From NCBI RefSeq assembly GCF_009914755.1, contig NC_060928.1: DNA of 64,000 nt; one strand, written 5' to 3'. Origin of the DNA: the human T2T-CHM13v2.0 reference genome, Homo sapiens. The notes below the pieces were generated by a model. That model was given only the letters and a program-made list of their open reading frames with translations, was not told the origin of the DNA and searched no databases. Made by a program: the position numbers and the translations under genes. This document shows, piece after piece, positions 9,669 to 52,665 of the stretch. The stretch's first letter is position 1; each line of letters starts with the position of its first letter.

Positions 9669-11023
9669 TCTCTGTGGACCAGGAAGCTTTTAAAAGTTGA
9701 TTCTTTGCCTAGTTTTGATCCTTTATGATCTTTGGGAAATTCCTGTTGCTGGAGACGTCTCACCTCTGGTTACCTTAATCAGGCAATGAGTCTATATTTC
9801 GGTGGTCATTTAGATTTCTCCCTTAGCCTTTGGGCCAAAAGGTGGCAATAATCTTCTTATAACCTAAAACAACCTCTCTCCTCCTAGTAGTGTATACATG
9901 GTGCACTGAAAAAAATCTATATCCCTTACCTTTACAGATGGTAGGAGTACAAACTGATGCCAGCACAGCAACTCTCCAACTTATATAGTATTAAAAATGA
10001 GCATTTACATATGATGCCATATAATTTAGTGTTTGGATCTCCTACTCCCCTGCCACCCATTTGTGCACTCTGTGCTCTTATTTCTTATGGTAAAACAATC
10101 CTGTATTTCAAGTAAACAAACTTAATCAGTTTAATATAGAAACAAATACTCTAGGAAAATTAAGTTTTATTATAAACATATTAATGAAAATCAAAATAAT
10201 TTAAAATATAATAATGGCTTTCAGAGAAAAGTGTTTTTGCTTTCCTTTATTATTTTTGCTAATAGTCATAAAAAGATAAGGAAGTTAGCCAATAATGTTA
10301 TCAGAAAACACAGCAAAGCTTTTAGATGCCCTTAAACTGTCACCAAAATCAAGTGTAATTTACTTTCTTTTATGTATTACTAGCAATACTTATGTCACAT
10401 TTTTCAGTGTTCCCATACTATCAGGGAATGTGTATATTCCACTGAGCTCTGATTATTTGGTAGTGGTGTTACATTTTAACATAGTATGGCCATAAAGTTG
10501 TACTAAAAAATAGTGAATTTTTTTTATTCTGTATGAGGAAATAAGCTATTTCTCCATTCTTTTATCTAAACACTTGATAACATAGGATAAACATTAACCC
10601 TTCAATTAACTAAATATAACAATTGGCAAAGAATTCACGTTAGGAAAGGTACAAAGCAGTAAATCTACAGATTGTTGGTCCTAGGATATATAGCTCTTCT
10701 GGTAATTACAGAAGTCTGTAGTATTTCTTAATTTTTCAGCACAGTTGATAAAGATAATATGGATAGACACTCAAATTGTTTTTATTTTACTTCGAAGATC
10801 AGCACATTTTTGAACATTTAGAAAATACCAGATTTCTCTGGCATGTAATTTCTCTATTTAAGGATAAAAAATCTGATGAACTCTCAAGTCCCTATTACCT
10901 TAAATTCCAAAATTGTTTTAAAAATGTTGAGCTAGTTACTTCTTGAGGAAGGAGAAAGAACAAAATAAGTATATTCATAAACCTTCTCTATTAAAGTTAC
11001 ACAGACTTTAAAGAAAACGTCAC

Positions 11024-13150
<2,127 letters not shown>

Positions 13151-13982
13151 TATATATATAGTATATATACATACATACGTATATACATGTATATATATTA
13201 CATATCTGTCCTCATTAGTTGGAATACAGCAGGCTTTACTAGTGTATCTGAAGTAAGGAGGAACCAGGAAGTGAGCTGTTTTGTAATGGAGACCAGTTAT
13301 ATCTAACAGAGGGCAACAGTGTCTATAAGACTGTAGCCTATTGGATGGGAAGCTATCTTATGCAAATATGATGAATCTTTTAAATTCTGAGTTCAATGCA
13401 GTCTACAGCTAAACTCAAATCCCGGCTCATACTAACCTTGGTCCTTGGGCATGTTTATGCTTCAGTTTTCTCATCTGTACATGGGTTAATAACAATACTC
13501 AGCTTGACAGTAACCATACTGCACAGTGCCTAACACATGTAAGTGCTCAATTAACGTCCATTTCTACTTTCTGAAAATATATGGTATTAGTGTGCAAAAA
13601 GTTGGGCTACATAACTCAAATCTCCTTTGTATCTTAGGTAAGACCGCTTCTTTCTCTGGATTGTTTCTTCTAGTCAAATGCACAGGAATTTAGTTGATCT
13701 CCCAAGTTATTTTGGACCTTAAATTCTGTTTTATTCTTGTTCATTTTCTATGTAGTTTAGATTTAGTTCATTGGACTGATTTATGTTCTGTGTTCTTTTA
13801 AAATTCAGGAAGATGTGTATAGGATAGATAGAGCAAATATATAAACACTCAATTTCATTTACTTTAATATAAAAACTAACAAGTTTCTCATTAGTTATAA
13901 TAACCTTAAAATTGATGTGTTTGGGAAGCAACCTGCATAGTCATTAAAAGCAGGAGTTACAGAATCACAAAAAAAAAAAAAG
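13151..13982 (+). mobile_element. Putative L1 3'-transduced segment with ATTAAA signal and poly(A) tail
   Basis: ATTAAA at 13943-13948, A-run at 13969-13981, then aaagaaaacatcac (13983-13996) matching aaagaaaacgtcac (11010-11023). Confidence 0.78.
13405..13560 (+). mobile_element. MIR fragment (inside the transduced segment)
   Basis: tcaaatcccggctc...cttcagttttctcatctgta...acagtgcctaacacatgtaagtgctcaat. Confidence 0.75.
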
Positions 13983-15186
13983 AAAGAAAACATCACTAAC
14001 AATGAAAGCAGTAACTAATAAATATAAGTTGTTTTTAATTGTGCAAACAATTTGAGATTTGAAAAGTATTTCTGGACCAAGATGGTGACAGAAATTTTAG
14101 GGCATCAGTTTGGTCTTGAAGTTTAACAAGATTTAATTGTCAGAAGTATACTGTAAAGTGTATTCTTTTTCTTCTTCCCCTCTTCCAAACCACAATAATG
14201 TAAAGGGTATGTGGTTATTATCAGTAAGAACAATTAGACCAGAATTCATCAGAATGGATATCATATTAATTCTGTCCTGGTTAACTGTGATAATTTAAGT
14301 CTTTGTGTATTTTCACTTGTTCAATGAGTCACTGGGTATTTTAACAATGAAAAATCGGTCGGAACAGTGTTACACTGAGAATAAGCACTCTTGAAATGCC
14401 CAATACTTTTGAAATAATGAATACCTGTTGTTAGGTAAGAAATTAATAATTATTAAGTTCAATAACTCATCTCCTTTTAGAAAGTCCCACTGTATCTGTT
14501 ATAAAATTTTAAGAAATTTTCGAGGTCGGCGAATTTACAAGGAGCTGTATTTATGGCATCTTTCTGGATCCTACTTTTGCATTCTATCTTTCTGGTTAAG
14601 TTCATTAGGGTTTCCAGCAGTGGTTATCTTGGATCTGAAACATTGTCAGAGATCATATGAAAACCTGAAACTGTAAAATAAGGGTAAAGGAATGGTAGCG
14701 ATTGTAAAATTAAGAACAAAAATCAGATTTCACACAACAGAATTTGAAAGCTTGAAATAATAGAGAATTTTCAGTGTTTCAATAAATAAATAAAATATTA
14801 TTAGTGAAGGGAATTAAGAGTTTGATATTATCTTGATGAATTCAAGGTAGCTGAAATTAGCAAATCTGATTTTGTTTGCATACTGATAGTGTATCATCTA
14901 GTGGGAGAATCAGGTGAACTAAATTCTCAGAGACTGATGTATAAATCAAAGTATAAAAATATTGTGTTGGTAACTTACAGGGCACTGCTTAGATTTCTTT
15001 TTTCTCACAATTCTCTCTTAATGAGATCTTGCAGAATGGCGAACTTCTCACATTTTTTGACTGGCATATTCCTTCTTTAAACTTGTTAATACCATTACTT
15101 AGGTTAGTGTCAACTGTCACTGGTTTCAAGGAGTCTTACAATCTCTGAAAGTTGACATTTCAGATTTCTAACTTAATTCATTGAGT

Positions 15187-15266
15187 TGTAGTTAAACTCA
15201 TATGAGGGGAACTTTAATTCTTAACATGTAGTTAAACTTATATGAGGGGAGCTTTAATTCTTAACA
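15187..15266. repeat. 40-bp tandem duplication
   Basis: tgtagttaaact(c/t)atatgagggga(a/g)ctttaattcttaaca x2, 2 mismatches. Confidence 0.95.
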
Positions 15267-15496
15267 TTAACCTCTCAAATGTGGGTCACTATGTACAAAT
15301 GATGAAAACTAACTCATGTTTTAAATGATAGCAATATGAATGGCAAAAGACTACCTTAGCATATTTTTAATAAAAACTGCTATTGTGCTCAAAACTCCTG
15401 AAAAAATCACATTTTACATAATCAGTAATGAAATAGTTAATATTTCTATTATGAAATATTCTGATGTGTGAAGAATTGTACTGAGTAGAGCCCTAA

Positions 15497-15885
<389 letters not shown>

Positions 15886-15925
15886 GAAATATACATCTTA
15901 AAATATATATTTTAAATAATATATT

Positions 15926-15930
<5 letters not shown>

Positions 15931-15996
<66 letters not shown>

Positions 15997-15997
15997 C
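15931..15997. repeat. (TC)n(TA)n microsatellite
   Basis: Seen directly. Confidence 0.97.
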
Positions 15998-16286
15998 ACC
16001 TATTTAACAAACCTGCACATTCTGCACATGTACCTTAGAACTTAAAGTATAATTTTATATATATGTGTATATATACATACATACATATATACATGTATAT
16101 ATATTACATATCTGTCCTCATTAGTTGGAATACAGCAGGCTTTACTAGTGTCTCTGAAGTAAGGAGGAACCAGGAAGTGAGCTGTTTTGTAATGGAGACC
16201 AGTTATATCTAATAGAGAGAATCAGTGTCTATAAGACTGTAGCCTATTGGATGGGAAGCTATCTTATGCAAACATGATGAATCTTT

Positions 16287-16287
<1 letters not shown>
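15998..16287 (+). repeat. Direct duplicate of 13095-13381 (L1 3' terminus plus flank)
   Basis: Near-identical across ~290 bp, with few substitutions. Confidence 0.96.
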
Positions 16288-16322
<35 letters not shown>

Positions 16323-16336
16323 TCTATCTCTATATT

Positions 16337-16416
16337 TCTATCTCTCTCTCTATATATCTATATATATATGCATATATATATGCATATATATATAGATATA
16401 TAGAGAGAGAGATAGA
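16337..16416. repeat. 80-bp perfect palindrome built of (TC)n/(TA)n/TGCA units
   Basis: Arms checked base by base; centre between 16376 and 16377. Confidence 0.93.
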
Positions 16417-17385
16417 GAGATAAAATGAGAAATTACATTCCTAGCAACTATTTTAGCTCATTAAGACCTATGTGAATAAATCATTGATATTTTTACATGA
16501 AAGAGACCATACCATAACTTTACTTCACTAGATATTAGGCCAAGTAGCCACTCTTGAAAAAAGAGCAGGCAGGCAACAAAGAGACCAGTATTGCTTACTA
16601 TTGCAGTAATACAGTCATGAGATTATGAGGGCCTATACTTTAGCTGCCAATTAGGAGGACATATTTTAGAGGAGTGAAAAAAGAAACAATAGTTTGAGTG
16701 TCTGATTATAGAAGATAAATATTTTTCCCAGCAGATAATTCCTTTATCTTTGCTAGGCAAGATATCAAGGTCTGTTAATGAATAAGATTAACTAGCATAA
16801 GAGACTTGAGTATAATGACAAAGTTTCTTTTATACCTATTGACTGAAAATGAATTATGGATTTAGCAATTAAGTGTTTGTTGGTAACTTTCAAGATCATT
16901 CAGAAATCAAACTGCAGTTTATAAAGCCCAGAGTTAAGTGATTTTAACAATTTGATACTTGCTGATTGACCTTCTACCAGGTTTTAGATACCATTAACAT
17001 ATAGAGTAAAAGAGATAATCCTTGCCCTCAATAAACTTATAGATCATAAGGAAGAGATACAGACACATAAATGGTGCAATACGTCATATAAAACATTACA
17101 CAATGGTGAAAATGTAGGAAAGAGTAGAGAGCACAAAGTCAGTCTGCAATGGCTTCACAGACTATGGCCAAACCATCTCTAAAAGGAGAAATACAAATTC
17201 ATCTCTAGAATAAGGGGTGGAAGGGAGTTTATTTCCGAAAGTGTGATAGTAGGTTCACAGAACACATAGGTTTATGTAAAAGAGCATGGTGTGTTTTCTT
17301 GAAGATGAAGTTTAAAATGAGGAGTGATGTGATCAAATATCAAACATGTAATTGGAATCTGCTTATCATAGGTATGCAAGAGATA

Positions 17386-17622
17386 GAACAATGAGAACAG
17401 TTGGACACAGGAAGGGGAACATCAAACACCGGGGCCTGTCGTGGGGTGGGGGGAGCGGGGAGGGAATAGCATTAGAAGATATACCTAATGTAAATGATGA
17501 GTTAATGGGTGCAGCACACCAACATGGCACATGTATACATATGTAACAAACCTGCACGTTGTGCACATGTACCCTAGAACTTAAAGTATAATTAAAAATA
17601 TATATATATAAAAATAAAAAAA
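17386..17622 (+). mobile_element. 5'-truncated L1PA (PA3-PA5-like) 3' UTR
   Basis: gaacaatgagaac...gtaaatgatgagttaatgggtgcagcacaccaacatgg...cttaaagtataat plus A-rich tail. Confidence 0.92.
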
Positions 17623-27000: not shown

Positions 27001-29068
27001 GTCTATGTTGCATTTTTTGAAGTCTTGTTTTGTGATTATTCATAATAAGTGTGTATGTGTATGCATGTGAATTTAAGTGTGTGTTCTCGTGTGCACATGT
27101 TGGTGTTCGTAGGCTGTGGTCACCAACAGTTCTGTCTAGTTTTTTCTGGATACCTACCTTTTCTCTCCTTCGAAGGCACAGACTTATCAAAGTCTCATTG
27201 AATACTGAAGGGAATAAATGAAGACTTAGCTTCCCACTGTGCACTGGCATGCATTTTAAAGAAAAGGTTACTTTTTCTTAGAAAAATTGGTGTTAAGAGT
27301 CATATTTGCATAGCTAAAGAGAACCTCAAGGTGACTTAACCAAAACAAAGATAATGATGACTTGACCTCAAATAACGAAATGCCAGCAATTTAATCTGCT
27401 ATAGCACATTAACTTAATGTGAGTTAGAGAGCTATAGCTGTATAAAAAGGAGTAGAGGAGACTGGATAATACTGGGAAAGGAGCAAAGTCATGGATGCTT
27501 ACACAACAAACACATGGATGCTTACCAAGATCAATTAACAATATGTTATATTCCTTTTTTGTGCCACACTCTGCCCATGTGGATTTCTTTTTGAAGTTTT
27601 GCATCTCAATCTATTCAAAATATCTCATAACTCTTCACTGCCAGATAATTCCACAATTTCATCCTGCAGTATAGGACCTAATTGCTACTACTGTCCAACA
27701 GACCCCCAAGGCAGTGTTAGCCATATATTAAAAGCATTTTTTGTTTGTTTTATGTTATACAGAATAAATTTTTATTAATGGCCTCAAATTGTTACCTGAA
27801 AGAGGCAGATGGCAAACTAAACCATTTTTTCAAAATTCCTCATAGAAATGCTAAATGAAACAAACAAGCAAAGTATGGATTTTTATTAAAACTATGAAAA
27901 AAATTTTAATAACTGAATTATAGCATTCGCAAAAATTAAGATATGTTAAAACAATGGAAATTTGAACTTATTTGTAATTTTATTTTATAGAACTTTTGGT
28001 AGTATTGTTATTGTAATATTGTTTAAAGAAAAAAAAAACTAGCACAGTAGGAAATAAGTTTAAGGGATTATTTTGCCAGTCTTTCTCTGTTAGATTGAAT
28101 AATAAACTTGCCATTCAGGAAAGTCATTGTATATTTGTATACCATTTGTGTCCAGCCTGGTTTATATTTGCTGATTTGTTGACAAATTTGGAGCATGTGG
28201 TAAACTTTTCTATCCCAAGACAAGGACTGCACACTTCAATTTAAATCTCAGATTCAAATAAGTGGCACTCTTTATATTTAAATGTGAGCACATGCTATAC
28301 CAGTTTTATAATGTTACCACCTCTTCCCTGCTTTGGTAGAGTCTCTTCAATATTAGCTGATTTTATCCATTGTTAAGATGGTGTTTTCAAAGAAGATAAA
28401 AATGCATTTTGAATATGGAAATATAATTTTTCACATTCCTTTGAAATCTGGAAGAGAAATGTAGTAAGGAATCAAGTTGATTGAAAAAAAATCAAAAGAA
28501 AATAACAAGTTTAAAAATCCAGGATCATAAGAAGAAAAAAGACATTTAATCTTACAACTAGATATTTTAAAAATAGATAAAACAATGCCTTATTTTCACC
28601 TTCATTCTATCATTTTCAGCCTTTTTTACACACATGGGGACAAGTACTATGTCACTGACTATTATCTAATATTGTGATAATTTTTCTTATCACAATGCCA
28701 AGTTATCATCCACATAGTGAAAAACAGATATAACCTTCTTATGGTTTGATATGTTAATGAGTTTTAATATATACTTTAATCCTTTATTTACATGTAAGAT
28801 GGTAAAGATGCAGTTTCATAGTATCTTTTGTTCCTCTTTTTCAATTATTTCTGCAAAGTAAAGTGTAGGTTTTTTGAACTATACCCAGAAGAGTAGGCTG
28901 GAATCATGAGACCTTACTGCACAAAGTTCCACCCCTCTCTCTGTGGTCTAGCAGTGATGAGGTTGCTAGGTTGACAAAGCAGTGCTGGGTTTTCCACACT
29001 ATTATGTTTCATTCATAGGTTCTTCACTTGCCCACAGAGGTTAAAAACTAACTTTAAAAATGATAATA

Positions 29069-29215
29069 GATATACCTAATGCTAGATGACGAGTTACTGG
29101 GTGCAGTGCACCAGCATGGCACATGTATACATATGTAACTAACCTGCACATTGTGCACATGTACCCTAAAACTTAAAGTATAATTAAACAACAACAACAA
29201 CAACAAAAACATATA
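29069..29215 (+). mobile_element. Very short young L1 (L1PA2-like) 3' end with 13-bp TSD
   Basis: gctagatgacgagtta...actaacctgcacattgtg...ccctaaaacttaaagtataat; TSD aaaaatgataata at 29056-29068 and 29216-29228; ttt|aaaaa endonuclease site. Confidence 0.92.
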
Positions 29216-52311: not shown

Positions 52312-52665
52312 AAGTAAATATGCTAAATATAATTATATTAGTAAATATCTGTATATTTAGTAAATATACTAAATATAATTATATTTATATACTGTATATA
52401 CTAAATATAATTATATTTATATAATGTATATACTAAATATAATTATATTATATTTATATACTGTATATACTAAATATAATTATATTTATGTACTATATAT
52501 ACTAAATATAATTATATTTAGTATATTTACTAATTTTTGTAATTATATCATATAATTGTATTTTGTATATTTACTAATTTTTGTCTTGTATTTTAAATTT
52601 TATATATAAATTTTATAAAACTTATGAAAATATATAAATTATATATAAATATACATAGTAAATAT
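52312..52665. repeat. AT-rich ~32-bp minisatellite with embedded palindromes
   Basis: Unit tactaaatataattatatttatatactgtata repeated about 5 times; perfect 30-bp palindrome at 52497-52526. Confidence 0.92.

What the first reader, a model, noticed from the sequence alone, without database searches (positions are those of the whole stretch)
15931..16320. ~290-bp templated copy of the L1 3' end and transduced flank inside a (TC)n(TA)n microsatellite
15998-16287 is a near-identical direct copy of 13095-13381, 2.9 kb upstream. It includes the last ~55 nt of L1 (with the same private variants, e.g. acctatttaacaaa, gtaccttagaac) plus ~230 nt of flank. It has no poly(A) tail and is bracketed on both sides by (TC)n(TA)n. 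The donor also carries a TA-rich tract. Inference: a break at the microsatellite/palindrome was repaired by local template switching (SDSA/MMBIR or polymerase theta), after the L1 insertion. This gives a layered chronology: L1 with transduction first, local copy second.
Basis: partly seen in the sequence, partly recalled or inferred. Interest (0 to 1): 0.7.

Follow-up and report, generated by a model that had tools for sequence, protein, structure and literature searches.

The report
Repair-made local DNA copy beside palindrome
A 290-base stretch in an intron of the human GRID2 gene is a copy of DNA 2.9 kb upstream, likely patched in when a break at a repeat-and-palindrome site was repaired; this is a real but known kind of event, of which more than 800 are catalogued in our genome.

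Summary
15998-16287 copies 13095-13381 in direct orientation (8 substitutions, one 3-nt indel). Its 57-nt L1 end occurs at only these two places genome-wide. The donor is a twin-primed L1 with a ~775-nt 3' transduction, A-tail and 14-nt TSD. The transduction's source is on contig C14 (chr14-sized; 91% identical) and has no L1 beside it. Donor and copy share 11 substitutions and a 4-nt indel against that source, so the copy came from the local donor, after the L1 insertion. The copy has no A-tail and has microhomology at both ends. It is flanked by a ~37-40-nt direct repeat TTT(CT)n(AT)n and lies 50 nt from a perfect 80-bp palindrome. It fits the proximal 'repair-mediated duplication' class (PMC2671141: 824 human cases), and simple-repeat targets were already noted (PMC5829575). 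0 of 20 other (TC)7(TA)7 sites carry such a copy. The empty site in apes could not be checked, so the repair pathway and the duplication of the microsatellite are inferred. Ordinary class, unusually legible example.

The parts
15998..16287 (+). Acceptor: 290-nt direct copy of 13095-13381 (57 nt L1 3' end, TA-rich tract, ~185 nt transduced unique DNA)
13095..13381 (+). Donor (template) of the copy
15931..15996 (+). Left microsatellite (TC)~24 with a TTT interruption at 15957-15959, then (TA)9; 15957-15996 reads TTT(CT)10(AT)8A, the left member of the flanking direct repeat
16285..16321 (+). Right member of the flanking direct repeat, TTT(CT)8(AT)9; its TTT are also the last bases of the copy (3-nt microhomology); inferred to be a duplicate of the left member
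   Evidence: duplication inferred
15924..15931 (+). 8-nt match (TTTT|AAAT) to the donor's 3' breakpoint 13378-13385: alternative return point; 192 of 4,400 donor-side positions give a match this long
16337..16416 (.). Perfect 80-bp palindrome (40-bp arms, no spacer) inside a 114-bp 89% inverted repeat 16320-16433; hairpin or cruciform predicted
16213..16222 (+). Cluster of 4 substitutions in 10 nt in the copy; 3 of the 4 can be polarised by the source and are derived in the copy
   Evidence: P = 0.002 under uniform placement
11010..11023 (+). 5' target-site duplication of the L1 insertion, preceded by TTT (endonuclease-type site TT|AAAG)
11023..11992 (-). Inverted 5' part of a truncated L1 (twin priming; ~40 nt missing at the inversion point)
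   Evidence: mapped on L017 and L019 (2 of 7 fetched copies span both parts)
11999..13151 (+). Forward 3' part of the L1, interrupted by an Alu at 12192-12487 with its own TSD; 92-94% identical to the best other copies
   Evidence: the name Alu is from sequence recognition plus sub-threshold SRP-family hits
13152..13198 (+). TA-rich tract, likely the decayed poly(A) tail of the lost source L1
   Evidence: absent at the source locus; other L1 ends carry similar tracts; origin inferred
13194..13968 (+). 3' transduction from G000:C14:79848254-79849024 (65 mismatches of 774 aligned); ATTAAA at 13943-13948
13969..13996 (+). A13 tail, then the 3' target-site duplication 13983-13996 (13 of 14 identical to 11010-11023)

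Best explanation
15998-16287 is a direct copy of 13095-13381 that likely arose in one germline repair event, when a DNA end likely broken or stalled in the (CT)n(AT)n/palindrome tract copied 290 nt from the nearby template and then returned. Inferred steps: the 3' end of the (TA)n run annealed at TATA in the L1 3' end, leaving a 2-nt filler or one substitution at the junction. After 290 nt it left the donor at ...TCTTTT and re-annealed at the start of the microsatellite (at TTT 15957-15959, or at TTTTAAAT 15924-15931), so ~37-40 nt of (CT)n(AT)n were copied twice and now bracket the insert. This is a proximal repair-mediated duplication (SDSA/MMBIR/pol-theta type; the sequence cannot tell these apart). 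Shown order: the L1 with its transduction came first (8.4% from its source), the copy later (0.8-2.5% from its donor). On the scale of PMC2671141 (1.32% expected for the human and chimpanzee lineages) that is likely about 38 and 4-11 million years. No function is predicted; it is a neutral intronic scar.
For: Local origin: the 57-nt L1 end is unique to the two places; donor = copy against the source at 11 substitutions and a 4-nt indel in 182 columns; no third full copy among the scored matches (40 of 803 candidates scored). Not retrotransposed: no A-tail or polyA signal, and the copy starts 57 nt inside the L1 and ends mid-transduction. Junction microhomology: TATA at the 5' end, 3 or 8 nt at the 3' end. 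Flanking direct repeat TTT(CT)10(AT)8A / TTT(CT)8(AT)9; 0 of 20 control (TC)7(TA)7 sites have a second such site within 5 kb on either side. Fragile-looking target: the only perfect inverted repeat with stem >=20 in the window, -40.5 kcal/mol, 0 of 200 shuffles fold as well. GRID2 is listed in common fragile site FRA4F (PMC7140878, passage). A 4-in-10-nt substitution cluster in the copy (P = 0.002) fits error-prone repair synthesis. Size, distance and junction types fall within the class of PMC2671141.
Against: No ape or monkey ortholog could be read, so the empty site, the duplication of the microsatellite and the age of the palindrome are unseen. Short microhomologies are cheap here: TATA occurs 41 times and TTT 214 times in the 4.9 kb upstream, and an 8-nt match arises for 192 of 4,400 positions. 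The flanking repeat (37-40 nt) is longer than the 4-21-nt TSDs in PMC2671141. The palindrome centre is ~380 nt from the 5' junction and ~90 nt from the 3' junction, so the insert is not at the tip; its perfect arms may be younger than the copy. The test that the mutation cluster was templated from the flank was inconclusive (9 of 81 outcomes match as well). In PMC13645644 (passages) TA-repeat breakage was seen on circular ecDNA and not on the chromosomal amplicon. A tandem duplication followed by a deletion gives the same final sequence.
Confidence: 0.68

Rival explanations
1. Two steps: a 2.9-kb tandem duplication (13095-15996), then a ~2.6-kb deletion in the second unit between the donor end and the microsatellite start.
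For: It gives the same order of blocks and the duplicated microsatellite; the 3- or 8-nt microhomology would be the deletion junction.
Against: It needs two events at one site and loss of the intermediate; single-step products of this size and distance are common (824 cases, PMC2671141).
Confidence: 0.1
2. The same local capture, but into a compound array that already had two (CT)n(AT)n units, so nothing of the target was duplicated.
For: The right-hand array has a further short (TC)n(TA)n unit at 16339-16357; control L029 has a short second unit.
Against: Both units start with TTT and have nearly equal lengths; 0 of 20 controls have two full units.
Confidence: 0.11
3. RNA-templated patch: the nascent GRID2 pre-mRNA, which holds the donor 2.9 kb upstream in the same sense, was reverse-transcribed into the break (class 2 TSIP or endonuclease-independent type).
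For: The copy is in the sense of GRID2 and downstream of its donor (hub annotation); PMC5110952 proposes RNA patches with microhomology and no A-tail.
Against: The templates described there are distant, not nearby; in the 15 chr4 rows seen of Table S1 of PMC2671141, donors lie on both sides and mostly outside genes, so no RNA is needed.
Confidence: 0.08
4. An independent retrotransposition from the same source L1, or from the local L1.
For: The copy holds an L1 3' end and is flanked by a direct repeat.
Against: No A-tail or polyA signal; it ends ~590 nt before the donor's tail; it shares the donor's differences from the source.
Confidence: 0.02
5. Assembly artefact.
For: Low-complexity flanks; reads were not available.
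Against: 8 substitutions and an indel between the copies; at 13367/16273 the copy has the source's base and the donor does not.
Confidence: 0.01

Closest known systems
Proximal repair-mediated duplications (RDs), Pace et al. 2009, PMC2671141 (read: parts 1-3 of 8, passages, Table S1 by search); related to the 'doublets' of Thomas et al., cited there
   Same: Insert 50-619 bp, donor within 5 kb, no polyA/T tail, microhomology with filler and sometimes a TSD (6 of 39 inspected proximal cases), donor-acceptor divergence of the order of 1% for young cases.
   Different: Their pipeline only saw inserts that interrupt an annotated transposon, so a simple-repeat target like this one was outside it ('GRID2': 0 occurrences in Table S1). 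The flanking repeat here is 37-40 nt against 4-21 nt.
Localized non-tandem duplication (same strand), Frith and Khan 2018, PMC5829575 (passages)
   Same: 26 same-strand cases among 166 rearrangements; they state that target sites of some coincide with simple repeats, which can be fragile.
   Different: Those are differences between reads and the reference; this one is in the reference itself and is older. Their supplementary figures were not seen.
Parentless L1 3' transduction, PMC7980453 (passages)
   Same: The transduced sequence maps to a locus with no L1 beside it (17 of 18 cases in dogs).
   Different: There the sources are thought to be still segregating; here the event is 8.4% old, so the source allele was likely lost or never fixed.
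Class 2 templated sequence insertion polymorphisms, PMC5110952 (part 1 of 4 and passages)
   Same: Patch-like insert, no A-tail, microhomology.
   Different: Defined as distant templates, without TSD, and polymorphic; here the template is local.
TA-repeat fragility repaired by pol-theta MMEJ with small duplications, PMC13645644 (passages); templated insertions and local jumps in cancer, PMC7025897 (passages)
   Same: Breaks at (TA)n>=6 followed by short templated duplications under 5 kb.
   Different: Somatic, and seen on circular ecDNA or in tumours; this is an old germline event on a chromosome.

Membership tests
Proximal repair-mediated duplication (PMC2671141) | Insert of at least 50 bp (observed range up to 619 bp) | tested here: met
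   290 nt
Proximal repair-mediated duplication (PMC2671141) | Donor on the same chromosome, more than 50 bp and less than 5 kb away | tested here: met
   2,616 nt between donor end and copy start
Proximal repair-mediated duplication (PMC2671141) | One identifiable parental copy | tested here: met
   One full-length match at 96%; the C14 locus covers only 188 nt at 89%
Proximal repair-mediated duplication (PMC2671141) | No polyA/T tract of 5 nt or more at the ends | tested here: met
   The 3' end has 4 T, also present in the donor
Proximal repair-mediated duplication (PMC2671141) | Microhomology of 2-9 nt, filler, deletion or short TSD at the junctions | tested here: met
   TATA plus a 2-nt filler or one substitution at the 5' end; 3 or 8 nt at the 3' end; such short matches are often chance
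Proximal repair-mediated duplication (PMC2671141) | Empty orthologous site in an outgroup | not testable with these tools
   No primate relatives are held
TPRT retrotransposition / class 1 TSIP (for the copy) | Poly(A) tail downstream of a polyA signal | tested here: not met
TPRT retrotransposition / class 1 TSIP (for the copy) | TSD beginning at a TTTT/A endonuclease site | tested here: not met
   The flanking repeat is (CT)n(AT)n, with no such site at the junctions
Class 2 TSIP (for the copy) | Template from a distant region | tested here: not met
Class 2 TSIP (for the copy) | Polymorphic among people | not testable with these tools
   One assembly only
L1 3' transduction (for the donor) | TSD around L1 plus flank, at an endonuclease-type site | tested here: met
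   11010-11023 / 13983-13996, 13 of 14 identical, after TTT
L1 3' transduction (for the donor) | Non-templated A-tail 10-30 nt after a polyA signal | tested here: met
   ATTAAA 13943-13948, A13 from 13969; the source continues without a tail
L1 3' transduction (for the donor) | Unique flank maps to another locus | tested here: met
   G000:C14:79848260-79849024, 91%
L1 3' transduction with a resident parent (for the donor) | Source L1 directly upstream at the source locus | tested here: not met
   0 hits of 4 L1 queries in the 9,901-nt stretch, 7.75 kb of it upstream; filed as parentless instead
Twin-primed (5'-inverted) L1 (for the donor) | Inverted 5' part whose outer end adjoins the start of the forward part on an intact L1 | tested here: met
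   ~40 nt gap on L017 and L019

The most novel reading that the evidence does not exclude
This scar is one of an uncounted subclass: (CT)n(AT)n and palindrome tracts break in the primate germline, most of all in fragile sites, and are patched from local DNA while duplicating themselves as a long 'target-site duplication' and leaving mutation clusters. Such scars would be a fossil record of cruciform breakage and pol-theta-type repair that transposon-anchored surveys could not see.
Probability: 0.2. Interest if true: 0.5.

Novelty: new member of a known kind. Interest (0 to 1): 0.24.

Why it matters
As a single locus it matters little: an intronic, probably neutral duplication of a known class. 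Its value is as a well-polarised example. The C14 source acts as a built-in outgroup, so the direction of copying, the order of events and which copy carries each mutation can be read from one genome. If a genome-wide count showed such scars enriched at TA palindromes and fragile sites, it would test whether the TA-cruciform fragility described in cancer cells also acts in the germline. The two direct repeats 2.9 kb apart could also seed a small deletion allele (untested).

Tried and rejected
Independent retrotransposition: rejected. Copy made from the C14 source: rejected, 11 substitutions and an indel are shared with the local donor. Source L1 still on C14: none found. Sibling transductions from the same source: none, 3 of 3 candidates were the donor, the copy and the source. 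Mutation cluster templated from the flank: a 9-nt match covers 3 of the 4 changes, but 9 of 81 possible outcomes do as well; inconclusive. Structured RNA gene: 30 Rfam matches at E <= 0.1, none at its gathering score. Insertion creating the hairpin: a modelled empty site folds at -39.5 against -40.5 kcal/mol, so the hairpin does not depend on the insert. (TC)n(TA)n as a general hot spot for local copies: 0 of 20 sites (the first 20 of 100 listed, of 1,736 matches); this only bounds the rate below about 15%, and no genome-wide count of paired sites was obtained. Prior listing of this locus: 'GRID2' has 0 occurrences in Table S1 of PMC2671141 (the coordinate prefixes also tried there came from my recall and carry little weight; 15 chr4 rows seen), and no listed paper joins GRID2 with the duplication terms. 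Szak 2003 and Pickeral 2000 were not held and are not used. Long-read variant tables of PMC12350158 were not searched and could show whether the site is polymorphic.

Full report
Observation. A local alignment gives 13089-13381 against 15992-16287 with 283 matches, 10 mismatches and one 3-nt gap. The 57-nt L1 end matches only these two places in the whole genome at up to one mismatch. Related L1 ends, shown for 4 of 7 fetched copies, differ from it at several positions. In the window no other pair of 60 nt or more reaches 92% identity.

The donor. It is the end of a composite insertion bounded by a 14-nt target-site duplication (11010-11023 and 13983-13996, 13 of 14 identical) at an endonuclease-type site. 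Inside lie an inverted L1 piece (11023-11992) and a forward piece (11999-13151). On the two fetched L1 copies that span both pieces they adjoin with ~40 nt missing, the pattern of twin priming. An Alu with its own TSD interrupts the forward piece. The best other L1 copies are 92-94% identical (40 of 8,516 candidates scored). A subfamily label of about L1PA7-8 is my recall and was not tested. After a TA-rich tract come ~775 nt of unique DNA, ATTAAA, and 20 nt later an A13 tail.

The source. The unique DNA matches one other locus, G000:C14:79848260-79849024, at 91% (65 mismatches of 774 aligned). There the sequence runs on without an A-tail, so C14 is the origin. Four L1 queries found nothing in the 9,901 nt fetched, 7.75 kb of it upstream. 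The transduction is therefore parentless. This is known: 17 of 18 dog transductions mapped to loci without an L1 (PMC7980453, passages). The likeliest reading is a source L1 that was never fixed or was lost. A template-switch chimera between a C14 transcript and an L1 RNA is not excluded; both sides carry AAGTAT near the join.

Direction of copying. Over donor 13200-13381 (182 columns) all three sequences agree at 162. Donor and copy agree against C14 at 11 substitutions and a 4-nt indel. The copy alone differs at 4 sites, the donor alone at 1. The one donor-specific change, where the copy keeps the C14 base, also speaks against an assembly artefact.

Age. Leaving out the TA tract, donor and copy differ at 6 of 239 sites (2.5%, Poisson interval 0.9-5.5%). 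Four of the six lie within 10 nt (P = 0.002 under uniform placement). Counted as one event this gives 3 of 239 (1.3%); without the cluster, 2 of 239 (0.8%). PMC2671141 expects 1.32% for duplications of the human and chimpanzee lineages and found 0.89% for human-specific ones. On that scale the copy is roughly 4-11 million years old, with wide limits, and the L1 about 38 million years. These ages are inferred.

Junctions. At the 5' end the (TA)n run meets the donor where it reads TATA, with a 2-nt filler or one substitution. At the 3' end the donor's TCTTTT is followed by (CT)8(AT)9. The left array has a TTT interruption followed by (CT)10(AT)8A, so a return at TTT (3-nt microhomology) gives the present sequence apart from small length changes. 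An 8-nt match at 15924-15931 is a second candidate; it would need later loss of AAAT and contraction, and 192 of 4,400 positions give a match as long. Either way the bracketing repeats are best read as one microsatellite copied twice. There is no A-tail and no polyA signal.

The target. A perfect 80-bp palindrome lies at 16337-16416, the only perfect inverted repeat with a stem of 20 or more in the window. The region folds at -40.5 kcal/mol; 0 of 200 shuffles fold as well, although shuffles are a weak control for low-complexity DNA. A modelled empty site folds almost equally (-39.5). The left arm of the wider 114-bp inverted repeat resembles the reverse complement of the right-hand flank, which suggests a separate fold-back event. 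GRID2 is listed in FRA4F (PMC7140878, passage). TA repeats are described as cruciform-prone and repaired by MMEJ with short duplications, but that was on ecDNA and not on the chromosomal amplicon (PMC13645644, passages). That the break was caused by the palindrome is inferred.

Background. (TC)7(TA)7 occurs 1,736 times in the genome. In the first 20 of the 100 listed sites, 0 of 20 had a local copy of 80 nt or more at 93% or more within 5 kb, and 0 of 20 had a second full site; the positive control was found. Five of 20 had a perfect stem of 15 or more, all long (TA)n runs; none had a mixed palindrome like this one. The sample is small and from one chromosome.

Comparison with what is known. 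Pace et al. (PMC2671141; parts 1-3 of 8 and passages read) describe 824 human duplications of 50-619 bp with the donor within 5 kb, no A-tail, and microhomology, filler, deletion or a short TSD at the ends. Every feature I could test is met; the empty site could not be tested. Their method needed an interrupted transposon, and GRID2 is not in their Table S1. Frith and Khan (PMC5829575, passages) list 26 same-strand non-tandem duplications and note simple-repeat targets. The copy is not a TSIP as defined in PMC5110952, because its template is local. Ten paper searches listed nothing on this locus; only one search was aimed at it, and variant tables in supplements were not searched apart from that Table S1.

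Verdict. Shown: identity, local origin, order of events, source locus, missing parent, palindrome. Inferred: break at the repeat, single event with two switches, duplication of the microsatellite, ages. Interest 0.24.

Noticed in passing
G000 genome-wide: (TC)7(TA)7 has 1,736 matches, while the same pattern read backwards, (AT)7(CT)7, has 6: a strong polarity of this compound microsatellite. Whether it is described in print was not checked.
   Followed up: no
L002:1495-2269 (G000:C14:79848254-79849028): Source of the transduction with no L1 upstream; a candidate empty site of a lost source L1.
   Followed up: partly
window 12192-12487 and 15590-15885: Two Alus in opposite orientation, 85% complementary, 3.1 kb apart; the donor lies between them and the acceptor ~110 nt beyond the second. 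Pairing could have drawn template and break closer; speculative.
   Followed up: no
window 15500-15555: A fragment that looks like half of a MADE1 mini-transposon (name recalled, no call confirms it), cut off at the Alu; no second half was found in the window.
   Followed up: partly
window 16320-16433: A 114-bp inverted repeat whose left arm resembles the reverse complement of the right flank: possibly a fold-back template switch of its own.
   Followed up: partly
window 15187-15267: A 40-bp tandem duplication, 95% identical, 700 nt upstream of the acceptor.
   Followed up: no
window 17382-17600 and 29068-29188: Two further short L1 3' ends, 92% identical to each other over 121 nt; the first ends in a TA-rich tail.
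   Followed up: no
window 52313-52665: An AT-rich minisatellite-like array with periods 32, 46 and 69, another possible structure-forming tract in the same intron.
   Followed up: no
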